A stretch of DNA of 64,000 nt from assembly GCF_058153355.1 (NCBI RefSeq), contig NZ_CM177019.1; one strand, written 5' to 3'. A program made the translations under genes and the position numbers. The notes beneath the pieces are model-generated. The model did no database searches and had not been told where the DNA came from. It saw only the letters and a program-made list of their open reading frames with translations. Numbering within the stretch: position 1 is the first letter of the stretch; each line of letters begins with the position of its first letter. Positions 11,350 through 35,114 of this stretch are shown piece by piece.

Positions 11350-13500
11350 ATGGATACGAAAAAACTATTCAAGCACATACCCTGGGTGATTCTTGGAATC
11401 ATCGGTGCATTCTGCCTCGCGGTAGTTGCATTACGTCGGGGGGAGCACGTCAGCGCCCTGTGGATCGTGGTCGCCTCTGTGTCGGTGTATCTGGTGGCTT
11501 ATCGCTACTACAGTTTGTACATCGCCCAGAAAGTGATGAAACTCGACCCCACGCGCGCGACGCCTGCGGTTATTAACAATGACGGTCTGAACTATGTTCC
11601 GACCAACCGTTACGTGTTGTTTGGTCACCACTTCGCCGCTATCGCCGGTGCTGGTCCGCTGGTTGGTCCGGTTCTCGCCGCGCAGATGGGCTACCTGCCT
11701 GGCACGCTGTGGTTGCTGGCGGGGGTAGTGCTGGCCGGTGCGGTTCAGGACTTTATGGTGCTGTTTATCTCCTCTCGCCGTAACGGCGCATCTCTCGGTG
11801 AGATGATCAAAGAAGAGATGGGACCAGTACCGGGGACTATCGCGCTGTTTGGCTGTTTCTTAATCATGATCATCATCCTCGCCGTTCTGGCGCTGATTGT
11901 GGTTAAAGCCCTGGCCGAAAGTCCGTGGGGTGTCTTCACCGTTTGCTCAACCGTACCAATTGCGCTGTTTATGGGTATCTACATGCGCTTTATCCGTCCG
12001 GGGCGTGTAGGTGAAGTCTCTGTTATTGGTATCGTGCTGCTGGTTGCCTCTATCTACTTCGGTGGTGTGATTGCTCACGATCCGTACTGGGGTCCGGCAC
12101 TGACCTTTAAAGACACCACCATTACCTTCGCACTGATTGGCTATGCGTTTGTTTCCGCACTGCTGCCGGTGTGGCTGATCCTCGCACCGCGCGACTATCT
12201 GGCAACCTTCCTGAAAATCGGCGTTATCGTCGGCCTGGCGCTGGGTATCGTGGTGCTGAACCCGGAACTGAAAATGCCTGCGATGACCCAGTACATTGAC
12301 GGTACTGGCCCGCTGTGGAAAGGCGCTCTGTTCCCGTTCCTGTTCATCACCATCGCCTGTGGTGCGGTATCTGGCTTCCACGCGCTAATCTCTTCCGGTA
12401 CGACGCCGAAACTGCTGGCTAACGAAACCGACGCGCGTTTCATCGGCTACGGTGCAATGCTGATGGAGTCCTTCGTGGCGATTATGGCGCTGGTTGCTGC
12501 GTCCATCATCGAACCGGGTCTTTACTTCGCGATGAATACTCCGCCTGCGGGCCTTGGCATCACCATGCCTAACCTGCATGAGATGGGTGGCGAGAACGCG
12601 CCGATCATCATGGCACAACTGAAAGACGTTACCGCACACGCGGCAGCGACCGTCAGCTCCTGGGGCTTCGTGATTTCGCCAGAGCAGATCCTGCAAACCG
12701 CGAAAGACATTGGTGAGCCTTCTGTCCTGAACCGTGCAGGTGGTGCGCCGACGCTGGCGGTAGGTATCGCTCACGTGTTCCACAAAGTGCTGCCGATGGC
12801 TGACATGGGCTTCTGGTATCACTTCGGTATTCTGTTCGAAGCCCTGTTCATCCTGACCGCGCTGGATGCGGGTACCCGTTCTGGCCGCTTTATGCTGCAG
12901 GACCTGCTGGGTAACTTCATCCCGTTCCTGAAAAAAACCGACTCTCTGGTTGCTGGTATCATCGGTACTGCGGGCTGTGTGGGTCTGTGGGGCTACCTGC
13001 TGTATCAGGGCGTGGTCGATCCGCTGGGCGGCGTTAAGAGCCTGTGGCCGCTGTTCGGTATCTCCAACCAGATGCTGGCAGCCGTGGCGCTGGTACTGGG
13101 CACCGTTGTGCTGATTAAGATGAAACGCACCCAATACATCTGGGTAACTGTTGTTCCGGCTGTATGGCTGCTTATCTGCACCACCTGGGCGCTGGGCCTG
13201 AAACTGTTCAGCACCAACCCGCAGATGGAAGGCTTCTTCTACATGGCAAGCCAGTACAAAGAGAAGATTGCTAACGGTACTGACCTGACGGCACAGCAGA
13301 TTGCCAACATGAACCACATCGTTGTGAACAACTACACCAACGCAGGCCTGAGTATTCTGTTCCTGATTGTGGTGTACAGCATCATCTTCTACGGTTTCAA
13401 AACCTGGCTGAAGGTGCGTAACAGCGACAAACGTACTGACAAAGAAACACCGTACGTTCCAATCCCGGAAGGCGGCGTGAAGATCTCTTCGCACCACTAA
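11350..13500 (+). CDS. btsT: CstA-family pyruvate/H+ symporter
   Basis: 716 aa from MDTKKLFKHIPWVILG; CstA-family membrane protein; followed by yjiX and yjiA. Confidence 0.95.
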   Translation: MDTKKLFKHIPWVILGIIGAFCLAVVALRRGEHVSALWIVVASVSVYLVAYRYYSLYIAQKVMKLDPTRATPAVINNDGLNYVPTNRYVLFGHHFAAIAGAGPLVGPVLAAQMGYLPGTLWLLAGVVLAGAVQDFMVLFISSRRNGASLGEMIKEEMGPVPGTIALFGCFLIMIIILAVLALIVVKALAESPWGVFTVCSTVPIALFMGIYMRFIRPGRVGEVSVIGIVLLVASIYFGGVIAHDPYWGPALTFKDTTITFALIGYAFVSALLPVWLILAPRDYLATFLKIGVIVGLALGIVVLNPELKMPAMTQYIDGTGPLWKGALFPFLFITIACGAVSGFHALISSGTTPKLLANETDARFIGYGAMLMESFVAIMALVAASIIEPGLYFAMNTPPAGLGITMPNLHEMGGENAPIIMAQLKDVTAHAAATVSSWGFVISPEQILQTAKDIGEPSVLNRAGGAPTLAVGIAHVFHKVLPMADMGFWYHFGILFEALFILTALDAGTRSGRFMLQDLLGNFIPFLKKTDSLVAGIIGTAGCVGLWGYLLYQGVVDPLGGVKSLWPLFGISNQMLAAVALVLGTVVLIKMKRTQYIWVTVVPAVWLLICTTWALGLKLFSTNPQMEGFFYMASQYKEKIANGTDLTAQQIANMNHIVVNNYTNAGLSILFLIVVYSIIFYGFKTWLKVRNSDKRTDKETPYVPIPEGGVKISSHH

Positions 13501-13509
13501 CCGTGTTTA

Positions 13510-13536
13510 GCCCCGCTTCGGCGGGGCTTTGTTCTT
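13510..13536 (+). terminator. Rho-independent terminator after btsT
   Basis: gccccgc-ttcg-gcggggc hairpin followed by TTTGTTCTT. Confidence 0.7.
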
Positions 13537-13549
13537 ATCAGAGTGAACT

Positions 13550-13753
13550 ATGTTTGGTAACTTAGGACAGGCAAAAAAATATCTCGGCCAGGCGGCGAAG
13601 ATGTTGATTGGCATTCCAGACTACGACAACTACGTCGAGCATATGAAGACCAACCATCCCGACAAGCCGTACATGAGCTATGAAGAATTCTTCCGCGAAC
13701 GCCAGAACGCGCGCTACGGCGGCGATGGTAAAGGCGGTATGCGCTGTTGTTAA
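13550..13753 (+). CDS. yjiX: Small conserved protein (DUF466, CstA-associated)
   Basis: 67-aa ORF directly downstream of btsT. Confidence 0.85.
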
Positions 13754-13763
13754 TGGAGAGAGC

Positions 13764-14720
13764 ATGAACCCGATTGCAGTTACCCTACTCACCGGTTTTT
13801 TAGGCGCAGGCAAAACCACCCTGCTGCGCCATATTCTTAATGAACAGCACGGCTACAAAATTGCCGTGATTGAAAACGAATTCGGCGAAGTCTCCGTTGA
13901 TGATCAACTGATTGGCGACCGCGCCACGCAGATCAAAACGCTGACCAACGGCTGCATCTGTTGTTCGCGCTCCAACGAGCTGGAGGACGCGCTACTCGAC
14001 CTGCTGGATAATCTCGACAAGGGCAATATTCAGTTCGACCGTCTGGTCATTGAATGCACAGGCATGGCCGATCCCGGCCCGATTATTCAGACCTTTTTCT
14101 CCCATGAGATTTTATGCCAGCGTTACCTGCTGGACGGCGTGATTGCGCTGGTGGATGCGGTACATGCCGATGAGCAGATGAACCAGTTCACCATCGCCCA
14201 GTCACAGGTTGGCTACGCCGACCGCATTCTGCTGACCAAAACCGACGTCGCAGGCGAAGCAGAAAAACTGCGTGAACGCCTGGCGCGCATCAACGCCCGC
14301 GCACCGGTCTACACCGTCACCCACGGCGACATCGATCTGGGCCTGCTGTTCAACACCAACGGTTTTATGCTGGAAGAAAACGTCGTCAGCACCAAACCGC
14401 GTTTCCACTTTATCGCGGATAAACAAAACGATATTTCGTCGATTGTGGTGGAACTGGATTACCCGGTAGATATCAGCGAAGTTTCTCGGGTGATGGAAAA
14501 CCTGCTGCTGGAATCGGCGGATAAACTGCTGCGTTACAAAGGGATGCTGTGGATTGACGGCGAACCAAATCGCCTGCTGTTCCAGGGCGTCCAGCGCCTC
14601 TACAGCGCCGACTGGGACCGCCCGTGGGGCGATGAAAAACCGCATAGCACAATGGTGTTTATCGGGATTCAGCTGCCGGAGGAAGAGATTCGGGCTGCGT
14701 TTGCGGGGTTGAGGAAGTAA
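13764..14720 (+). CDS. yjiA: CobW/P47K-family GTPase
   Basis: 318 aa from internal Met (GGAGAG RBS); P-loop GFLGAGKTT. Confidence 0.9.
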   Translation: MNPIAVTLLTGFLGAGKTTLLRHILNEQHGYKIAVIENEFGEVSVDDQLIGDRATQIKTLTNGCICCSRSNELEDALLDLLDNLDKGNIQFDRLVIECTGMADPGPIIQTFFSHEILCQRYLLDGVIALVDAVHADEQMNQFTIAQSQVGYADRILLTKTDVAGEAEKLRERLARINARAPVYTVTHGDIDLGLLFNTNGFMLEENVVSTKPRFHFIADKQNDISSIVVELDYPVDISEVSRVMENLLLESADKLLRYKGMLWIDGEPNRLLFQGVQRLYSADWDRPWGDEKPHSTMVFIGIQLPEEEIRAAFAGLRK

Positions 14721-14788
14721 GTTCGGGAAAGATCAACTTTTTGAGAGTTCCACCGCAATATTATTACGAGTGGAACTCTTTAGATATG

Positions 14789-16463
14789 TCAGACCAACCA
14801 AAGCTTCTTCAATTGCGTTTTCATTTTTTCATGTCTCATTTTCAGTTCAGCCAATCCCCATTCTGAAGAATTACAAACATCTTTTGTTAAATCAAAAGAG
14901 CTTTTACTATTAAGTTTCTCATAAATAGATTTCTTTTTGATAAAATCATAGTGTTGTGCTTCAGAATTTTTGGAACCACTTATGAGTGTTAAATTACCTA
15001 TTTTATGCAGCCAGTAGACATGCTCTTGAGGTTGGAATCTATTAATCCAGTATTCATTAACTAATGCTTGAGGAAGAATATGCTCAATTGTGATTCTCCC
15101 CGTATAGGTTTTAATCACGCTCTCATCTTGTTGCTCCATATCTAAGCGAAGCAAAATTGCTTTTATTAAGTTCACTTGATTCGGACGAGGCTCATATAAA
15201 TCTTCATCCAGTGCAGCTATAAAACCTGAATTATCTGCATGTTGGTTTATCTGATTTATCACAGAATCAAAAGGCATATCATTATTTATTGCTACCAGAG
15301 CTGAATAACAAACCATTTCTCTTTGGCTTTTAATTTGTTTTTTTAACCACCCATGCATATATACCTTCTCAAAGGCGGTAATAAATTGAGAAAAATCATC
15401 TAAATTAAAATCTTCTGTACGAGCCATTCGATTCATGAATGCCATAACCGGAGGAATCCACTCATCTACCCCTAAATTACTTAGCGATGCTATTTTTCGT
15501 CGTATTGAAGGGTGTTCAAAATCATTCTCTAAAATCTTAGTATAATTTTTTGCAGAATTAACCAACATCAGTGACATAGCAATAGCATCTCCATCAAATT
15601 GCTGCTGGAGATTTTCAATAAAAGCTTCAAAACCTTTTTGTAACACCCTGTCACGATCTTTTTTCTCGGAAAGCTTATGAAGAGTAAGAAATTTATCAAG
15701 CCGTCTCACTCCAACCATATCTTCAATTTGCGACCATGCTGATTCTATTTGCTCTAATTTTTTATTATGTGTAGAAGCTGATTCAAACAGTGCATTTTTT
15801 AAAAGAACTGCATTACTTAAAGGTAAACCTCGACTATTTAATACATTAAAGAGTCTAAATGATGATGCGAAATCATCTGTTTGCACAAATACGATATATA
15901 CATTTTGCAAAATATATTTAGCAAGCAACTTCAACTCATCAACAGATAACCGCAACAAATAATCTCTAATTGTTTCAGCGTTGCTAATGAATACTAAATC
16001 AGTATCCGATGGCTTTTCAGGCTTATAATCTTTAGAATCCTGCAGTATATAATATTTATAAAGATCATACTCTTTTTTTCTAACAATTAGTCTTGGTTCA
16101 TCTGTTTCATCAGAATAAACATCAATAGGTAGAACTCTTTTTTTGCAAATCATCTTTTATCCCCTGAATCGGGATGATTTTTTTTAGCTCGGAGACAATA
16201 ATACTTAACGTTGTAAGACGTTGTTGCCCATCTACAACTTCATACTGATTTTGCCCTTTATTGATACAAATCATACTCCCAATAAAATATTCATTCTCTT
16301 CTGATTGAGAGCTTTTATAAATGTCATCAATGAGTTGCTCTGCATTATCTACCGTCCAACTGTAAGGACGCTGATAAGAAGGAATAATAAACTTTTTGTT
16401 TTCAGTAAGGATATCCTGCACCTTACATTCTTTAGCTTCCATTTCATATACCCAATCAAACAA
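14789..16463 (-). pseudogene. GmrSD-like type IV restriction endonuclease (DUF262 ParB-like N-domain plus DUF1524 HNH-like C-domain), frameshifted
   Basis: Two overlapping minus-strand ORFs (16463-16122 and 16153-14789). The upstream piece has the DUF262 motif PSYQRPYSW...DGQQR. They are joined only by a 1-nt frame change inside an A7 run (plus-strand T7 at 16138-16144). AT-rich. Confidence 0.7.
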
Positions 16464-16599
16464 TCAACAATAACATTATCTTTCTTGCCCGAAAGAAACG
16501 CAACTATAAGATTTTTATATATTTTGTTAGAGATATTAGTAGCAAAAGGCCACGATAAATTTCTCTCCCCTTCCCCATACGGGAAGGGGAAATACCCCC

Positions 16600-16764
16600 T
16601 CACTCCACATCCTCCCTGCGTAACCCAATATCCCTCAACCGTTCATCACTCATCTGCTGTAACACGCGTCGGGTCTGCATTTGCCGCCGCCAACGCCTCA
16701 CCGCCTGCCAGAGTTGCACCAGGCCGATAAACGGCGCTTTAGCTCTGTTTTCGTGAAATACCAT
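16600..16764 (-). CDS. yjiS: DUF1127-family small protein (YjiS-like)
   Basis: Hand-translated 54-aa ORF MVFHENRAKAPFIGLVQLWQAVRRWRRQMQTRRVLQQMSDERLRDIGLRREDVE with the DUF1127 signature; below the ORF-track length cut-off; divergent from yjiR. Confidence 0.7.
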   Translation of the reverse strand: MVFHENRAKAPFIGLVQLWQAVRRWRRQMQTRRVLQQMSDERLRDIGLRREDVE

Positions 16765-16940
16765 CTGCTGCCTCCTCATCTTTCAGAGGCTTCATCATCC
16801 GCCTTCTGGCAGTTCACAATACAGATGCAAATATTAGTTTTATTTAACATACAGACAGGTTAAAACAACATCTGCATCCGGTTTTTTAGCCTCATCTGTA
16901 CCGGTTTTTCTCTCTGTATGGTCCAAATAAGGAGTACAGC

Positions 16941-18353
16941 ATGACGCGTTATCAACATCTGGCGACTCTGCTTGCCGAACGGATTGAGCAAGGGCTGTAT
17001 CGTCACGGGGAGAAATTGCCGTCGGTGCGCAGCTTAAGTCAGGAGCACGGCGTCAGTATCAGCACCGTGCAGCAGGCGTATCAGACGCTGGAGACGATGA
17101 AGCTCATCACTCCGCAGCCGCGTTCGGGTTATTTTGTCGCACAACGTAAAGCCCAGCCGCCAGTACCGCCGATGACGCGTCCGGTGCAGCGCCCGGTGGA
17201 AATTACCCAGTGGGATCAGGTGCTGGATATGCTGGAGGCGCATAGCGACAGTTCCATTGTTCCGTTAAGCAAAAGCACGCCGGATGTCGAAACGCCCAGC
17301 TTGAAACCGCTGTGGCGGGAGCTAAGCCGGGTGGTGCAGCATAATCTGCAAACCGTTCTCGGTTATGACTTGTTAGCCGGTCAGCGAGTATTGCGAGAGC
17401 AGATTGCCCGCCTGATGCTCGACAGCGGCTCGGTAGTCACCGCCGATGACATCATTATTACCAGCGGCTGCCATAACTCGATGTCGCTGGCGTTAATGGC
17501 GGTGTGTAAACCGGGCGATATTGTCGCGGTCGAATCCCCCTGTTATTACGGTTCGATGCAGATGCTGCGCGGCATGGGCGTGAAAGTGATTGAAATCCCA
17601 ACCGATCCAGAAACAGGCATCAGCGTTGAAGCGCTGGAACTGGCGCTGGAACAGTGGCCAATTAAAGGCATCATTCTGGTGCCAAACTGTAATAATCCGC
17701 TGGGATTTATTATGCCGGACGCGCGCAAACGGGCCGTTCTCTCTCTCGCTCAGCGTCATGATATTGTGATTTTTGAAGATGATGTCTATGGCGAACTGGC
17801 AACGGAGTATCCGCGCCCGCGGACCATTCATTCCTGGGATATCGACGGGCGAGTGCTGCTGTGCAGTTCGTTCAGTAAAAGCATTGCACCAGGCCTGCGC
17901 GTGGGTTGGGTCGCACCGGGGCGTTATCACGATAAACTGCTGCATATGAAATACGCCATCAGCAGCTTTAATGTGCCGTCCACGCAAATGGCGGCGGCAA
18001 CGTTTGTGCTGGAAGGTCACTATCATCGCCATATCCGGCGGATGCGGCAGAATTATCAGCGCAATTTGGCGCTTTATACCTGCTGGATACGGGAATATTT
18101 TCCCTGCGAAATCTGTATTACGCGCCCGAAAGGCGGATTTTTACTGTGGATAGAATTGCCTGAACAGGTCGATATGGTCTGCGTTGCGCGACAGCTGTAC
18201 CGCATGAAAATCCAGGTGGCGGCAGGCTCGATTTTCTCGGCTTCCGGCAAATACCGTAATTGTCTACGCATCAACTGCGCTTTACCGCTCAGCGAAACCT
18301 ATCGCGAAGCACTGAAGCAAATTGGCGAGGCCGTGTATCGGGCAATGGAATGA
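16941..18353 (+). CDS. yjiR: MocR-family regulator (GntR HTH fused to aminotransferase-like domain)
   Basis: 470 aa; N-terminal GntR HTH and class-I aminotransferase-like fold; AAGGAG RBS. Confidence 0.9.
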   Translation: MTRYQHLATLLAERIEQGLYRHGEKLPSVRSLSQEHGVSISTVQQAYQTLETMKLITPQPRSGYFVAQRKAQPPVPPMTRPVQRPVEITQWDQVLDMLEAHSDSSIVPLSKSTPDVETPSLKPLWRELSRVVQHNLQTVLGYDLLAGQRVLREQIARLMLDSGSVVTADDIIITSGCHNSMSLALMAVCKPGDIVAVESPCYYGSMQMLRGMGVKVIEIPTDPETGISVEALELALEQWPIKGIILVPNCNNPLGFIMPDARKRAVLSLAQRHDIVIFEDDVYGELATEYPRPRTIHSWDIDGRVLLCSSFSKSIAPGLRVGWVAPGRYHDKLLHMKYAISSFNVPSTQMAAATFVLEGHYHRHIRRMRQNYQRNLALYTCWIREYFPCEICITRPKGGFLLWIELPEQVDMVCVARQLYRMKIQVAAGSIFSASGKYRNCLRINCALPLSETYREALKQIGEAVYRAME

Positions 18354-18450
18354 ATTCGAAATAGTGGCGAAGCGCCTGATTTCCTCTCACGAATCGCGTG
18401 TGACTCGTTTTATCTTTGCTGGGTCATCGCCACGTTCCAGCCTGAATTAG

Positions 18451-18570
18451 GCAAAGTGCGCTTTGTTCATGCCGGATGCCATGTGAACGCCTTACCAGGT
18501 CTACAAAATCTTTAAAGTTCAATATATTTAATGGGTTATGTAGACCTGATAAGTGTAGCGCATCAGGCTG
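18451..18570. repeat. REP/BIME palindromic units
   Basis: gccggatgc...cgcctta... and inverted gtagacctgataag...gcgcatcaggc units typical of E. coli REP elements. Confidence 0.7.
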
Positions 18571-18595
18571 CTTTGCGTTTGTCATCCGTCTCTGA

Positions 18596-19552
18596 TTAGT
18601 ACTCGATCCATGGATCACGCTTGCTTTCAGGCAAGGGCTGATCTAATGCCTGCATTTGCTCTGCCGAAAGTCCGGTATATCGTTGTATCCATTCAGGATC
18701 GGCCCCATTCTGCAACAACAATCGGAGGAGGCTCCGTTCCCCTTCTACTTTCCCTTCTTTCCTCCCCCTCTCCCTTCCCAACAGCCATCCATCATTATGA
18801 ATTCGCTCTGCAATTGTCATTATTCGCTCCCTGTGGTGTGGCATTCGCCTGGTAAGTTCGCTGATAAACGCCTTAAAACGCGCTTCATCGCCAGTCAGTA
18901 AAATGTAATTTAACAGCGCAGTTATCTGGCTGTCATTAGCGCACCCTGTAACCAGTAATACTGCCAGTTGATCAATAAGCCCCATTAGATCGCGCTGGCG
19001 AATATGCTTTTGGATCAACTCCAACAGGGCGACTCTGCGATGCTGCACAATCTCGTCATCCGGCACGATAGTGATATCCACCAGCGGGAACGCGGCGTTA
19101 TAAAGCTTCCGTGCGGTAGTCGGGTCGGCAAATTCGTCCAGCCAGCACAAAGACCAGGGATAAGGACTACGGCTACCGTGATAAAACAGCATCGGGATGA
19201 CCAGCGGTAGCGGTCGGCGTTTATCATGTTCGATATGGCGCTGCATCACCGCCATGGAATAGCGCATCAGGCGAAAAGCCATGTGAATATCCTCACGGCT
19301 CTGATGTTCAATCACCACATAGATATAGCCATCTCCTTTACGGGTCTTTACCGACCACAGAATATCGGAATGTAGCGCCCGTAATTTTTCATCGACAAAG
19401 CTGGCGGATTCCAGTTTTAAGCTATCGAGATCGCACAGTTCACGTAAATCTATTGGTAAGTGGATCTCCATAAAATCCCGCGCGGTGTCAGGGTGGGTGA
19501 GAAAGGATTTAAATAATGCGTCATGCGGCGTACTGGTCGTGAAGTTTGTCAT
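18596..19552 (-). CDS. rpnD: Rpn-family recombination-promoting nuclease (PD-(D/E)XK, transposase_31-like), uninterrupted
   Basis: 318 aa; N-terminal HDALFKSFL and core typical of the YhgA/Rpn family; adjacent to mdtM where K-12 has yjiP/yjiQ. Confidence 0.8.
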
Positions 19553-20029
19553 GGCGATCCGTCACCTGTAGATAAGATGGCCCGACTTTAGCGACTAACA
19601 AAACCATTCTCACCCGGCTATTTTCCGTTCCCCGAGGCGCTTTCTAGGCTATTTTTGTTCCTCTGCAAACGATACATTTTTCCGGAAACAGGCTCGCGTT
19701 TTACATTTCCTGTACCCGGCAGATATTCCCCTTTCCACCGCGCTCTTTTGATTAACCGCAAATTTTAATTACACTTAAGGTGTATATTTTCTATGCAACC
19801 CATCAATTCAAGAGGTGTAATGTGCTGATGACTATTTGTAATCGTTATACATTCTGACCCGAAGTCAGAAAGTATTTCACTGTCTGTGTGTTCACAGGCA
19901 GTGTGGTTGATTACATGAAATTCAGTACATTTGCAGTCTCGTTGCCCTTCTCACCTGCCTTTCGTCATTACCGACGGTATTGAATTTCGTTTTCCCCGTT
20001 GGGGTTCTCCGGACAAGGAGTTGTTTGTT

Positions 20030-32800: not shown

Positions 32801-35114
32801 ACTACCGGATGAGGATGTGAAATTTACCTTGCCAGCATCTATGACAGGGAACTTCACGCTAAGTAGTGACACCGCTCGCACCGATTCAAACGGCAATGCC
32901 GTGGTCACATTGCGAGGCACAAAAGCGGGTGGGTTTACAGTGACGGCGACACTGAGCAGAAATAATACCAGTGCTAATCAGCTAGTCTATTTTATTGGGG
33001 ATACAAGCAGCGCGCAGCTCCAGCCGCTGACTGCCTCATTAAATACCATAGTTGCTGGCAACAGTACGGGGAGTACCCTGACAGCAACGATCCTGGACGC
33101 TTACCAAAATCCGCTTAAAGACCAACAGGTCACTTTCCAGAGTAACGATGTCACACTAAGCGGAACAGAAGTCACCACCAATACGCAGGGTCAAGCGACA
33201 GTAATAATGACCAGCAATATTGCCGGACAACATAACGTAGTGGTGAGCCGGAAAGCGCAATCATCCGATAATAAAACGTTTAGTTTATCAGTGCTCCCGG
33301 ATGAAAGTTCGGCGAAGATAATAAGTATAACCGGAGCCGAAAAAACGATAATGGTTGGCGAAAACATCACGCTACGTATACACGTACAGGATGCGTTTAA
33401 TAACGTCATAGCCGGTCAACGCGTCAGATTAAGTGCGCTGCCAACAGCTAACATTACGATAGACGATACGGCTTACACCGATAATAACGGCTATGCGTAC
33501 GTTAACCTTATCAGCACCCAGCCTGGGGTCTATCAGGTGACAGCATCGCTGGACAATAACAGTAGTCGTAAAGTTGACGTGAGTGTGGCAAAGGGCAAAC
33601 TCGAGTTAACATCATCGAAGCCAGAAACCACGGTCCATAACAGTGAAGGTATTACACTGACCGCAACGGCAAGAAATATTCAGGGTGAATTGATGCCGGG
33701 GCAAATTATCACCTTTAGCGTAACACCTGATGGGGCAACGCTAAGCAATACAGGGGAAATCCTGACTGATCAGTCAGGTCAGGCCAAAGTGACGCTGACC
33801 AGTGACAAAGTCAATGTATATACCGTTACGGCCACAATGGGCAAAGACGTTCCCGTTCAGAGCCAGGTGACGGTTGCGGTTAAGGCTGATGCTAAAACGG
33901 CACATGTTGTGAGTGTCGTGGCTTCTCCTGACACCATAATCGCCGACGGGGTTGATAGCAGCACCATCACTTCACGAGTAGAAGATGATTATGGATTCCC
34001 GGTTGAAGGTGTCGACGTTAGTTACAGCTTAGACACCAAAGGCAGCCCGGTGATTAATAATCCAACTACGCGTACCGATCAGTCCGGGCAAGTCACGGCG
34101 ACAATAACAGGTACATTGGCAGAAGCTCTAATTGTCAATGTTCAGGTCCCTGGCACAGTCCACAAATCCGCAGCCATTACATTGATTCCTGGTACGGCAG
34201 ATGAAAGTAAATCAACATTGAAATCTAGCGTTAGCTCTTTTATGGCTGACTTCCAGGAGAGCGCGACACTTACGTTAATATTGCAAGACAAGTACGGTAA
34301 CCCGATAGTGACGTCTGATCATCTGGAATTTGTCCAGTCAGGTGCCTACGTGAACCTCCTGAAGTTGAGCAATATTGATTACAGCCAAAGAAATTATGGC
34401 GAGTACACCGTCACTGTCACTGGCGGCGTAGAGGGCAGAGCGACTCTCATTCCTATGCTGAACGGTGTTCATCAAGCAAACTTAAGCATATCACTGGATC
34501 TTGTCCGCTCAATAAAAGACATGCACGGTCATGTAACAGTCAACAACCATACCTTCACAACGGCTACATTCCCCAGTGAAGGTTTTATAGGGGCGTACTA
34601 CACACTTAATGATGACAACTTTGAAGCGGGTAAAACCGTTAGTGATTATATGTTCACAAGTTCACAGAGTTGGGTGTCTGTCGATGCTTCAGGTAAAGTT
34701 TCTTTCACAAATACCGGCGACCAAACTTCAGTCGTAATAAGCGCTGTTCCCAGACAAGGAGGTACAACCTACCAGACATTAATTAAGCTGAAAGGCTGGT
34801 GGGTGAATCATGGGAATCAAACCAATATCTGGCTAACTGCCAATGCGTTCTGCAACGCGAAAAGTGATGGATATAATCTTCCTGGCGTCGCACATTTAAC
34901 GTCTGGCGAAAACAAACGCACGTTGGGATCGCTATATGGTGAGTGGGGGAACGTTGGGGAGTTTTCCAGTGATTCGCAATTTACCGCGGGTGATTACTGG
35001 ACCAATCAACAGGATGATTACAATAGACACGTCTATGTGCAGATGCTGACGGGCAGGATTGGAAGCGACGCAGATTCCAGCGCTCAACTAACTGCCTGCC
35101 GTAAATCACTTTAA
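29874..35114 (+). CDS. Inverse autotransporter adhesin (intimin/invasin family, type Ve)
   Basis: 1746 aa; LysM-like segment; beta-barrel domain with intimin-like motifs (GAEYWRDY, ERPANGWD, EQYYGD, LAGSRYDLIDRNNNIVLEYRKKE); about a dozen Big_1 Ig-like repeats; C-terminal C-type-lectin-like domain. Confidence 0.85.
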   Translation: MASTNAQQIKNNDQNSLCGLGDKIRRLAAGVCLFTQIFFPVIATAQNVVHAKPQMTVSSPPPLTENKTVPYTLGALESAQSVADRFGISLEELRRLNQFRTFARGFDNVRQGEELDVPATTSQRSHELQNAVSPANAENTLENQIASTSQRVGTLLSQGMNSEQASSMARGWASSEASGTMTDWLNNFGTAKISLGVDEDFSLKNSEFDFLHPWYDTPDYLLFSQHTLHRTDDRTQINTGLGWRYFTPSWMSGINLFFDHDLSRYHSRAGLGAEYWRDYLKLSSNAYIGLTGWRSAPELDNDYEARPANGWDLRAEGWLPAWPHLGGKLVFEQYYGDEVALFDKNDRQSNPHAITAGLNYTPFPLLTLSAEQRQGKQGENDSRFAVDLTWQPSSSMQKQLNPDEVAGRRSLAGSRYDLIDRNNNIVLEYRKKELIRLSLLDPVKGKSGEIKSLVSSLQTKYALKGYKIDAAALESAGGKVSTSGKDITVTLPGYRFTNTPETDNTWPIDVTAEDVKGNLSHREQSMVVIQAPALSQKDSLLSVNPLTLAADKKSTTTLTVTAHDSDGTPVPGLALQTRSEGVQDITLSDWTDNGDGSYTQMLTAGTTSGSVTLTPQLNGESAVKESIVVNIVPVVSSRDHSSISIDNILYYAGDDIKVRVELKDDKNKPVEYQEDALVKAVTVENSKPGATVVWHEEHPGVYAANYPAHKQGAALRAQLSLHNWNTPLQSHIYNIEANQNKAHVATLSATNNDVYADKKTFNTITINVTDESDNPLRNHQVTFKNEKGSAEFVEPTQQNTDAHGVATINMISQVAEENTISATLPNGSTQRVTAKFVSDSNTPKLKQLVAAPDTISAGNSQGSTLTATVTDFHNNPLKDMKVNFVAPTDSQLDNTTATTDQSGIARVHLTSSKAGNYTVDASLEADKNIHQSVTVTVVPNREQSVIILNAGSGSTIANNTDTVTLTASVKDVYGHSLPDEDVKFTLPASMTGNFTLSSDTARTDSNGNAVVTLRGTKAGGFTVTATLSRNNTSANQLVYFIGDTSSAQLQPLTASLNTIVAGNSTGSTLTATILDAYQNPLKDQQVTFQSNDVTLSGTEVTTNTQGQATVIMTSNIAGQHNVVVSRKAQSSDNKTFSLSVLPDESSAKIISITGAEKTIMVGENITLRIHVQDAFNNVIAGQRVRLSALPTANITIDDTAYTDNNGYAYVNLISTQPGVYQVTASLDNNSSRKVDVSVAKGKLELTSSKPETTVHNSEGITLTATARNIQGELMPGQIITFSVTPDGATLSNTGEILTDQSGQAKVTLTSDKVNVYTVTATMGKDVPVQSQVTVAVKADAKTAHVVSVVASPDTIIADGVDSSTITSRVEDDYGFPVEGVDVSYSLDTKGSPVINNPTTRTDQSGQVTATITGTLAEALIVNVQVPGTVHKSAAITLIPGTADESKSTLKSSVSSFMADFQESATLTLILQDKYGNPIVTSDHLEFVQSGAYVNLLKLSNIDYSQRNYGEYTVTVTGGVEGRATLIPMLNGVHQANLSISLDLVRSIKDMHGHVTVNNHTFTTATFPSEGFIGAYYTLNDDNFEAGKTVSDYMFTSSQSWVSVDASGKVSFTNTGDQTSVVISAVPRQGGTTYQTLIKLKGWWVNHGNQTNIWLTANAFCNAKSDGYNLPGVAHLTSGENKRTLGSLYGEWGNVGEFSSDSQFTAGDYWTNQQDDYNRHVYVQMLTGRIGSDADSSAQLTACRKSL

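What the first reader, a model, noticed from the sequence alone, without database searches (positions are those of the whole stretch)
16122..16153. Frameshift inside an A7 homopolymer splits the GmrSD-like gene: pseudogene, sequencing error or slipped-strand switch
The DUF262 N-terminal ORF ends at 16122; the downstream ORF begins at 16153 in the -1 frame. The only thing between the frames is a run of seven A (minus strand; plus-strand T7 at 16138-16144). By hand, removing one A (A6) or adding two (A9) gives one continuous reading frame ...DDLQK-RVLPIDVY.... The flanks are otherwise intact with no other stops, so inactivation looks recent or reversible.
Basis: seen in the sequence. Interest (0 to 1): 0.6.

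Follow-up and report, generated by a model that had tools for sequence, protein, structure and literature searches.

The report
Recently frameshifted GmrSD restriction gene (pseudogene)
An anti-phage restriction gene of the GmrSD family in an Escherichia genome was recently broken by one extra A in a short A-run and also carries a damaging amino-acid change, so it is an ordinary young pseudogene and not a reversible genetic switch.

Summary
On the minus strand, a 550-codon gene with GmrSD_N and GmrSD_C domains (window 14789-16442) is split at an A7 run (16138-16144). The N-terminal ORF stops at 16122. The C-terminal ORF starts at 16153 in the +1 (= -2) frame.

- **The extra A is lineage-specific.** Intact orthologues have A6: 568 of 574 complete E. 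coli genomes match exactly, as do 15 of 15 metagenome contigs. None has A7.
- **It is probably not an assembly error.** A short-read Logan contig (SRR31441161) is 100% identical to the window, A7 included. Its sample may be the window's own. The only other 1-bp indels against E. coli C sit at or outside CDS ends.
- **The break is recent.** The closest relative (GCA_015332025.1) differs at 5 positions in 21,654 bp, has A6 and is intact.
- **Reversion would not restore the protein.** Three of those five differences lie in this gene. One is D212V, at a residue invariant in 116 of 116 homologues.
- **There is no switch signature.** A-runs are no more frequent than codon usage predicts, no RNA structure flanks the tract, and the in-frame A_AAA_AAG site shifts to the wrong frame.
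- **Wider pattern.** The same gene is broken independently elsewhere, mostly at the neighbouring A8 run, where A7 is fixed in O157:H7 and O55:H7.

Verdict: a real, recent, ordinary pseudogene of low interest.

The parts
14789..16442 (-). Whole disrupted gene: a single-chain GmrSD-family (DUF262 + DUF1524/HNH) type IV restriction endonuclease homologue. It has 550 codons once the extra A is removed. It lies between yjiA and yjiS, which is the immigration control region.
   Evidence: Pfam finds GmrSD_N at residues 8-219 and GmrSD_C at 412-540. It is 99.3-99.5% identical at the nucleotide level to E. coli WP_000387532.1. The best PADLOC match is Orf5, E = 1e-141.
16138..16144 (-). Tract T2: the A7 run that carries the +1 A insertion. 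It is A6 in intact orthologues.
16122..16442 (-). N-terminal fragment ORF. It is 106 aa from ATG 16442; the mechanical ORF list starts it at TTG 16463. It contains the QR and DGQQR motifs and ends ...DDLQKKSSTY*.
14789..16153 (-). C-terminal fragment ORF, 454 aa (MICKK-RVLPIDVY...). It holds the second half of GmrSD_N and the whole HNH-type GmrSD_C domain. It overlaps the N-terminal fragment ORF by 32 nt.
16218..16232 (-). DGQQR motif, residues 71-75. This is the predicted NTP-binding signature of the GmrS/ParB-like domain. The frameshift leaves it on the N-terminal fragment.
   Evidence: invariant in 116 of 116 homologues. Motif role from PMC4619093.
15806..15808 (-). Codon 212, GTT (Val). 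It is GAT (Asp) in the nearest relative and in every homologue. This is a second lesion and probably inactivating.
15755..15757 (-). Codon 229, TTA (Leu), against TCA (Ser) in the nearest relative. This position is variable in the family.
15068..15088 (-). IEHILPQ, the (I/L/V)(E/D)H(I/L/V)xPQ His-Me/HNH nuclease motif of the GmrD domain. It is intact.
   Evidence: Motif definition from PMC4619093 and PMC4437046.
16178..16185 (-). Tract T1: an A8 run, wild-type length in the window. This is the tract that actually varies among E. coli: A7 in O157:H7, O55:H7 and others, and A9 in STEC276.
16073..16079 (-). Tract T3: an A7 run, wild-type length in the window. An A8 variant that gives ...RKKRV* is found on 10 contigs elsewhere.
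16161..16165 (-). AGGGG, a Shine-Dalgarno-like sequence 7 nt upstream of the C-terminal fragment's ATG. Inference only: it could allow some translation of the C-terminal fragment.
   Evidence: Read from the sequence.
16503..16530 (-). Weak sigma-70-like promoter match (CTAACA-16-TATAGT) upstream of the gene start.
   Evidence: It is a consensus match only, and the region has fewer such matches than its shuffles.

Best explanation
The locus is a GmrSD-family single-chain type IV (modification-dependent) restriction endonuclease gene. It sits in the immigration control region between yjiA and yjiS of an Escherichia coli-like chromosome.

In this lineage, replication slippage added one A to an A6 run (codons Q100-K101-R102: CAA AAA AGA became CAA AAA AAG A). 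This shifts the frame in the middle of the N-terminal ParB-like (GmrSD_N) domain. The DGQQR NTP-binding motif ends up on a 106-aa stub. The rest of the domain and the HNH nuclease domain end up on a 454-aa fragment.

The copy also carries D212V, at a residue invariant across the family, and S229L. It is therefore a real, recent, non-functional pseudogene and not a phase-variable switch.

What is shown: the insertion, its absence from orthologues, its recency, the extra substitutions, and the invariance of D212. What is inferred: slippage as the mutational mechanism, the loss of restriction activity, and the enzyme's substrate (glucosyl-hmC or hmC phage DNA, by family analogy).
For: **The frameshift and what it breaks**
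- Sequence and frames.
- The intact orthologue has A6 and reads DDLQKRVLPIDVY.
- Domains and motifs: and PMC4619093.

**A6 is the norm**
- 568 of 574 complete E. coli genomes that carry the gene match A6 exactly, and none has A7.
- 15 of 15 metagenome contigs have A6.
- The A7 N-terminal fragment exists in one sample only.

**The change is probably real**
- The Logan contig SRR31441161_99 is 100% identical to window 11789-19153 and 13941-21353, A7 included.
- Against about 30 kb of E. coli C, the other 1-bp indels are few and sit at or outside CDS ends (16599 falls at the yjiS stop).

**The change is recent**
- GCA_015332025.1 has the same yjiA-gene-yjiS junction. It differs from the window at 5 positions in 21,654 bp, has A6, and encodes an intact 550-aa ORF.
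- That intact allele is found on 16 contigs.

**There is a second lesion**
- D212 is invariant in 116 of 116 homologues of 26-59% identity, within the motif G-L-x-L-x-x-x-D-[IL]-[LI]-K.

**There is no switch signature**
- A synonymous-codon shuffle gives P = 0.18-0.83 for the number and length of A-runs.
- The RNA fold around the tract has z = -0.05.
- The T1 A7 frameshift is inherited across about 300 O157:H7 and O55:H7 genomes. Only Xuzhou21 carries that allele with A8.
Against: - No raw reads could be inspected. The Logan contig may come from the same isolate or the same read set as the window, so it excludes an assembler artefact but not a culture-specific or library-specific variant.
- Loss of function is inferred and was not measured.
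- A split GmrSD can work when it is divided between domains. The CT596 two-chain form arose from a stop codon followed by re-initiation and was active (PMC4437046).
- The C-terminal fragment has an ATG with a Shine-Dalgarno-like AGGGG 7 nt upstream, so some protein may be made.
- Low-level +1 slippage on A7, by the ribosome or by RNA polymerase, cannot be excluded from sequence alone.
Confidence: 0.85

Rival explanations
1. Sequencing or assembly error: the true tract is A6 and the gene is intact.
For: Homopolymer miscalls are common. One RefSeq genome, SCU-485, has every A-run of this gene inflated (A14, A8, A11). Xuzhou21 is a lone outlier at tract T1. No reads were available for the window.
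Against: - A short-read-style Logan contig reproduces A7 and is 100% identical to the window over the stretches compared.
- Against about 30 kb of E. coli C and 21.65 kb of the nearest relative, the window has no other homopolymer indel inside a CDS.
- The insertion is accompanied by two substitutions in the same gene, one at an invariant residue. That fits a copy that is truly decaying.
Confidence: 0.05
2. Phase-variable contingency switch: slipped-strand mispairing toggles the A-run between A6 (on) and A7 (off), turning restriction on and off in the population.
For: - The lesion lies in a homopolymer.
- The same gene is frameshifted at three different A-runs in other strains. T1 shows A7 and A9, T2 shows A5 and A7, and T3 shows A8.
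- Phase-variable restriction-modification genes exist in other bacteria (general knowledge).
Against: - A6 or A7 is shorter than typical contingency tracts.
- T2 is A6 in at least 568 of 574 genomes and in 15 of 15 metagenome contigs. A7 occurs in one sample and A5 in two short contigs.
- A-runs are not enriched over the codon-usage expectation.
- The longer T1 frameshift is clonally stable in O157:H7 and O55:H7, with at most 1 possible revertant in about 300 genomes.
- The window copy has D212V, so reversion would not give a wild-type protein.
Confidence: 0.04
3. The split gene is still expressed and functional. Either recoding on the A-run (+1 ribosomal frameshift or transcriptional slippage) yields the full-length enzyme, or the two fragments assemble into a two-chain enzyme.
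For: - A +1 slip of tRNA-Lys on CAA AAA AAG A, or loss of one A in the mRNA, would recreate exactly ...LQKRVLP... (sequence).
- The C-terminal fragment has an ATG with AGGGG 7 nt upstream and overlaps the N-terminal ORF, which would allow translational coupling.
- A two-chain CT596 GmrS/GmrD, produced by a stop codon plus re-initiation, was active (PMC4437046).
Against: - The frameshift is not conserved in any orthologue.
- The in-frame A_AAA_AAG heptamer promotes -1 shifts. That leads to the third frame, which stops after 16 codons, so it is the wrong direction (sequence).
- No stimulatory RNA structure is present.
- No slow codon or stop codon sits in the A site to drive a +1 shift.
- The split falls inside the GmrSD_N domain (residue 101 of 8-219), between its two conserved blocks, and not between domains.
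- D212V hits an invariant residue.
Confidence: 0.04
4. Adaptive loss: inactivating this restriction gene was positively selected in the lineage, for example to tolerate incoming modified DNA or to remove a self-toxic nuclease. The three hits would then reflect selection and not neutral decay.
For: - Three of the five differences from the nearest relative fall in the 1.65-kb gene out of 21.65 kb. The binomial P is 0.004 if mutations are spread uniformly.
- The gene is independently inactivated many times in E. coli: by frameshifts at T1, T2 and T3, and by IS3 and IS5-family insertions.
- One of these frameshifts is fixed in the O157:H7 and O55:H7 clone.
Against: - If only about 35% of the flanking sites are treated as free to vary, P rises to 0.05. 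That fits plain neutral accumulation after a first knockout.
- The counts are tiny.
- Most genomes that carry the gene keep it intact: 249 of 574 complete genomes despite heavy O157 oversampling, and 13 of 15 metagenome contigs.
Confidence: 0.2

Closest known systems
GmrSD homologues of the E. coli immigration control region, such as EcolC_3721 of ATCC 8739 and Z5943m of O157:H7 EDL933, listed in Fig. 8 of He et al. 2015 (PMC4437046)
   Same: It is the same gene at the same locus next to yjiA. ATCC 8739 is among the best DNA matches at 99.3%. It has the same 550-aa DUF262 + DUF1524 architecture. The O157 copy is likewise split by a homopolymer frameshift.
   Different: The window is broken at a different A-run: T2 went from A6 to A7, whereas O157 has T1 going from A8 to A7. 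The window also carries D212V and S229L. The adjacent hsdRMS genes present in most E. coli carriers are absent, so the gene abuts yjiS directly. The paper describes no biochemistry for this orthologue.
Eco94GmrSD, EcoCT596 GmrSD and UTI89 GmrSD: prophage-encoded type IV enzymes that cleave glc-5hmC or 5hmC DNA (PMC4437046, PMC4619093)
   Same: The domain pair is the same (GmrSD_N/ParB-like with DGQQR, and GmrSD_C/HNH with (E/D)HxxP and L(G/A)NLxL...N). The presumed role is also the same: NTP-dependent, modification-dependent restriction of T-even-like phages.
   Different: It is only a distant relative. In He et al. 2015 the one identity figure given for an immigration-control-region homologue is 24%, for the 733-aa APECO1_2080. 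No direct comparison with Eco94GmrSD was run here. It is shorter (550 aa against 629 aa), chromosomal in the immigration control region and not on a prophage, and its substrate is unknown. Here it is inactivated.
BrxU and SspE (DUF262 + DUF1524 defence nucleases; PDB 6jiv and 7dri for SspE)
   Same: They share the ParB-like N-terminal domain and the HNH-type C-terminal domain. SspE profiles and chains match both ends weakly.
   Different: There is no BREX or Ssp gene context. The sequence similarity is weak (E = 1e-8 to 1e-5 for SspE chains). The best PDB hit is an unnamed DUF262 protein, 9jfl, at E = 5e-13.
Phase-variable (contingency) restriction-modification genes with homopolymer or repeat tracts, for example in Haemophilus, Neisseria and Helicobacter
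   Same: A frameshift in a homopolymer inside a restriction gene.
   Different: The tract is short (A6), is not polymorphic in populations, and is not enriched beyond codon usage. The off allele carries further damage.

Membership tests
[quoted passage not shown] | N-terminal DUF262/GmrSD_N (ParB/Srx-like) domain with the near-invariant DGQQR motif | tested here: met
   PF03235 matches residues 8-219 with E = 4.7e-41. VVDGQQRLTT lies at residues 69-78 and is invariant in 116 of 116 homologues. In the window the frameshift at codon 101/102 cuts the domain in two.
[quoted passage not shown] | C-terminal DUF1524/GmrSD_C His-Me (HNH) nuclease domain with the (I/L/V)(E/D)H(I/L/V)xPQ and L(G/A)NLxLLxxxN motifs | tested here: met
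   PF07510 matches residues 412-540 with E = 2.1e-27. IEHILPQ lies at 452-458 and IGNLTLISGSKN at 481-492. The motifs are as defined in PMC4619093.
[quoted passage not shown] | Both domains on a single polypeptide, or a GmrS + GmrD pair divided between the domains | tested here: not met
   Intact orthologues are single-chain, 550 aa. The window copy is split inside GmrSD_N, not between the domains. It is a disrupted member of the family.
[quoted passage not shown] | NTP-stimulated cleavage of glc-5hmC or 5hmC DNA, and restriction of T-even phages | not testable with these tools
   This needs cloning of the A6 and A7 alleles followed by plaque assays or in vitro cleavage. No publication on this orthologue's activity was found.
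Phase-variable contingency locus (slipped-strand switch) | Tract length polymorphic among closely related strains or within populations | tested here: not met
   T2 is exactly A6 in 568 of 574 complete genomes and in 15 of 15 metagenome contigs. A7 is found in one sample and A5 in two short contigs.
Phase-variable contingency locus (slipped-strand switch) | Repeat tract longer or more frequent than the coding sequence requires | tested here: not met
   A synonymous-codon shuffle (5000 replicates) gives P = 0.18 for runs of 6 or more, 0.58 for 7 or more, and 0.83 for 8 or more and for the maximum run. The gene is 33% G+C and 38 of its 48 Lys codons are AAA.
Phase-variable contingency locus (slipped-strand switch) | The off allele is otherwise intact, so reversion restores function | tested here: not met
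   The window allele has D212V at a residue invariant in 116 of 116 homologues, plus S229L.
Programmed ribosomal frameshift or transcriptional slippage gene | The frameshift is conserved among orthologues, with a slippery site in the right direction and a stimulator | tested here: not met
   Orthologues are in-frame. The A_AAA_AAG site is a -1 site, but a +1 or -2 shift is required. The fold has z = -0.05.

The most novel reading that the evidence does not exclude
Loss of this immigration-control-region GmrSD gene may be repeatedly selected in Escherichia. The ordinary A-runs in its first 380 nt would then act as easy knock-out sites that let lineages shed a modification-dependent barrier. Examples are the O157:H7 and O55:H7 clone at T1 and this window's lineage at T2. 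The window lineage shows a double hit (D212V plus the frameshift) within a divergence of only 5 changes in 21.65 kb, which would point to recent positive selection and not drift.
Probability: 0.2. Interest if true: 0.45.

Novelty: new member of a known kind. Interest (0 to 1): 0.2.

Why it matters
The main value is for annotation. The two ORFs at 14789-16153 and 16122-16442 should be annotated as one frameshifted pseudogene of a GmrSD-family type IV restriction enzyme, and not as two proteins.

The strain then has no intact restriction gene in its immigration control region, because no hsdRMS, mrr or mcrBC genes lie between yjiA and yjiS. That may make it more permissive to modified phage or foreign DNA.

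The wider pattern is a modest example of defence-gene turnover. The same gene is knocked out independently at several A-runs and by IS elements, and one knock-out is fixed in O157:H7 and O55:H7. This does not reveal any new mechanism.

Tried and rejected
- **Species identification.** Two exact-pattern scans of GTDB species representatives found nothing. One used a pattern tolerant of T2 length and one used the gene-yjiS junction. The organism is therefore named only as E. coli-like: 96-98.6% identity to E. coli C across core flanks, with matching contigs from NCBI draft assemblies.
- **Cluster look-up.** The listing of cluster members did not hold the window's fragments or the repaired protein. 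The look-up of encoding contigs did find them.
- **Recoding.** I looked for a stimulatory RNA structure (z = -0.05) and checked the direction of the A_AAA_AAG heptamer, which is wrong. Rejected.
- **Antisense terminator.** The hairpin at 16157-16177 followed by T8 on the plus strand is a single consensus match, which is the number expected by chance. Not pursued.
- **Reversion at T1 within O157:H7.** TR01 and NCCP15648 carry the common non-O157 allele. Only Xuzhou21 has the O157 allele with A8. One outlier cannot distinguish reversion from a homopolymer sequencing error.
- **SCU-485 as a natural A8 variant at T2.** All its A-runs are inflated, so it is an assembly artefact. Rejected.
- **Structure prediction.** Not run, because sequence conservation already answered the D212 question.

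Full report
**1. The observation**

On the minus strand the sequence reads ...ATT CAG GGG ATA AAA GAT GAT TTG CAA AAA AAG AGT TCT ACC TAT TGA.
- The A-run occupies 16144-16138, so it is A7 (T7 on the plus strand), as reported.
- The upstream ORF ends with TGA at 16124-16122.
- The downstream 454-aa ORF begins with ATG at 16153-16151 and reads MICKKRVLPIDVY....
- A straight translation of 14789-16463 is open only as far as ...LQKKSSTY*.
- Deleting one A gives ...DDLQKRVLPIDVY... and one continuous 550-codon frame from ATG 16442 to the stop at 14789-14791.

One detail needs correcting: the downstream frame is +1 (equivalently -2) relative to the upstream one, not -1.

**2. What the gene is**

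- Pfam places GmrSD_N (PF03235) on residues 8-219 and GmrSD_C (PF07510) on residues 412-540 of the intact orthologue.
- The family's signature motifs are present: VVDGQQRLTT (69-78), FRLFN (195-199), IEHILPQ (452-458) and IGNLTLISGSKN (481-492). They are as defined by Machnicka et al. 2015 (PMC4619093).
- PADLOC's best model is 'Orf5' at E = 1e-141, followed by HEC-06 and weak SspE matches. The nearest solved structure is an unnamed DUF262 protein, 9jfl, at E = 5e-13.
- The gene lies between yjiA (13680-14720, +) and yjiS (16600-16779, -). This is the E. coli immigration control region.
- He et al. 2015 (PMC4437046) already list GmrSD homologues at this locus. Their list includes EcolC_3721 of ATCC 8739, which is one of the best DNA matches to the window, and 'Z5943m' of O157:H7 EDL933. 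I found no biochemistry for this orthologue.
- The gene has 33% G+C, so it looks horizontally acquired. It is rich in lysine codons, and 38 of the 48 are AAA.

**3. Orthologues at the tract**

- 574 of 5,426 complete E. coli genomes carry the gene.
- A 75-nt probe carrying A6 matches 568 of them exactly.
- A probe carrying the window's A7 matches none at better than 97.4%, which is the value expected for A6 plus one SNP. The only longer tract is in SCU-485. That assembly has every A-run of the gene inflated (A14, A8, A11), which marks it as an artefact.
- 15 of 15 metagenome contigs holding the site have A6.
- In the large assembly collection, the 106-aa A7 N-terminal fragment exists in one sample, Logan SRR31441161. 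The same fragment on the common allele background is absent. The A5 fragment occurs on two short contigs.

The window's A7 is therefore a private +1 insertion in a tract that is otherwise almost invariant.

**4. Real change or artefact**

- The Logan contig SRR31441161_99 (36 kb) is 100% identical to the window over 7.4 kb in two overlapping look-ups, A7 included.
- Against about 30 kb of E. coli C, the other 1-bp indels are few and sit at or outside CDS ends, with 16599 falling at the yjiS stop.
- Against the nearest relative, the tract is the only indel in 21.65 kb.
- An assembler or homopolymer artefact is therefore unlikely.
- I cannot exclude that the Logan run and the window come from the same isolate, and I could not see any reads.

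**5. Recency and the second lesion**

- YjiR of the window led to NCBI draft assembly GCA_015332025.1. It has the same yjiA-gene-yjiS arrangement and an intact 550-aa gene with A6.
- The alignment spans 21,654 columns (window 4789-26442). Over it, the two sequences differ at five positions:
  - the extra A in the tract;
  - 15807 (D212V), inside the gene;
  - 15756 (S229L), inside the gene;
  - 19645, which lies outside the listed ORFs;
  - 24195 (K112N in yjiL).
- The intact allele is found on 16 contigs, with either hsdR or yjiS next door.
- In an alignment of 116 full-length homologues (26-59% identity), D212 is invariant. It sits in the motif G205-L-x-L208-x-x-x-D212-[IL]-[LI]-K215, whereas position 229 is variable.
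Reverting the tract would leave a protein mutated at an invariant residue.
- Three of the five changes fall in 7.6% of the aligned length. That is unlikely under a uniform model (P = 0.004). It becomes unremarkable (P = 0.05) if only about a third of the flanking sites are free to vary. This fits neutral decay after a first knock-out and only hints at selection.

**6. Switch or recoding**

- A synonymous-codon shuffle that keeps the protein and the gene's codon usage gives as many and as long A-runs as observed (P = 0.18-0.83). The tracts are a by-product of AAA-rich coding.
- The 151 nt of RNA around the tract fold no better than shuffles (z = -0.05).
- The insertion creates an in-frame A_AAA_AAG heptamer. 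That is a -1 slippery site, and a -1 shift enters the third frame, which stops after 16 codons. The productive shift would be +1, and no slow codon or stop codon is present to drive it (sequence).
- The split lies at residue 101, between the two conserved blocks of the ParB-like domain. This differs from the inter-domain split of the active two-chain CT596 enzyme.
- An AGGGG sequence 7 nt upstream of ATG 16153 might allow some synthesis of the C-terminal fragment. That is inference only.

**7. The wider pattern in this gene**

The tract that really varies in E. coli is the A8 run 33 nt upstream (T1, window 16178-16185).
- It is A8 in 249 complete genomes and A7 in 319.
- The A7 genomes sampled in the listings were mostly O157:H7 and O55:H7, where RefSeq annotates a 94-aa 'DUF262' protein plus a 452-aa 'HNH endonuclease'.
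- It is A9 in STEC276. A9-type N-terminal fragments occur on about 100 contigs.
- T1-A7 also occurs on a non-O157 allele background in two metagenome contigs.
- Only Xuzhou21 carries the O157 allele with A8. The frameshift is therefore clonally stable and does not switch.

Other independent knock-outs of the same gene:
- An A7-to-A8 change at a third run (T3, window 16073-16079) gives ...RKKRV* on 10 contigs.
- IS3 and IS5-family insertions also occur.

The gene is thus lost repeatedly and by several routes, as is usual for defence genes. T2, the tract in the finding, is one of the rarest routes.

**8. Verdict**

- This is a real, recent, lineage-specific +1 A insertion that pseudogenises a known type of gene, a GmrSD-family type IV restriction enzyme of the immigration control region.
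- A second, probably inactivating substitution accompanies it.
- It is not a sequencing error as far as the available assemblies can show. It is not a phase-variable switch, and it is not a recoding site.
- Interest is low. The most novel reading still open is recurrent adaptive loss of this restriction barrier. The evidence for that is suggestive but weak.

Noticed in passing
window 16178-16185 (minus strand A8, tract T1); L002, L003, L014, L023: The neighbouring A8 run, not the reported tract, is the polymorphic one in E. coli. It is A7 in 319 of 574 complete genomes; those sampled in the listings were mostly O157:H7 and O55:H7, where the gene is annotated as two proteins. It is A9 in STEC276 and on about 100 other contigs. 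A7 also occurs on a non-O157 allele in two metagenome contigs.
   Followed up: yes
L006 (E. coli Xuzhou21, NC_017906.1): This is the only complete genome with the O157-type allele and an intact A8 at T1. It is either a rare revertant or a homopolymer sequencing error. The two cannot be told apart here.
   Followed up: partly
L005 (E. coli SCU-485, NZ_CP053245.1): Every A-run of the gene is inflated (A14, A8, A11 and others), and there is a 70-nt deletion. This looks like a systematic homopolymer error in a RefSeq 'complete' assembly.
   Followed up: partly
window 16464-16600 and 13680-16779: The immigration control region of this genome holds only the broken GmrSD gene between yjiA and yjiS. 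There is no hsdRMS, mrr, mcrBC or symE. E. coli C keeps an hsdR remnant here, and most carriers have a full EcoAI-family type I system. No complete E. coli genome shares the window's gene-yjiS junction.
   Followed up: partly
L027 469-2563, L032 469-2563, L037 2232-3395: Other strains with the identical YjiR protein carry a different pair of genes next to yjiS and symE: a 274-aa GmrSD_N protein and a 387-aa GmrSD_C + DUF5655 protein. This is either a natural two-gene GmrS/GmrD system or another split gene.
   Followed up: no
window 15755-15808 and 24195: Three of the five differences from the nearest relative (GCA_015332025.1) fall inside the 1.65-kb GmrSD gene. The fifth is a K112N change in yjiL. 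Uniform-model P = 0.004, and conservative P = 0.05.
   Followed up: yes
window 16157-16185 (+ strand): There is a terminator-like hairpin (TTATCCCCTGAATCGGGATGA) followed by T8, antisense to the gene and formed by the complement of tract T1. It is one consensus match, which is about the number expected by chance.
   Followed up: no
window 25198-27315 and 29874-35114: Relative to E. coli C the window has inserted genes for a 705-aa pentapeptide-repeat protein and a 1,746-aa inverse autotransporter adhesin (IatC-like N-terminus). Window 27582-29624, which aligns to the yjiK and yjiJ genes of E. coli C, is only 81% identical to it.
   Followed up: partly
window 16100-24000 against 14700-16532: The core flanks (yjiR to yjiM) are only about 96-97% identical to any complete E. 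coli genome, whereas the GmrSD gene is 99.3% identical to E. coli alleles. This is consistent with horizontal exchange of the gene among lineages. The exact taxon of the window was not determined.
   Followed up: partly
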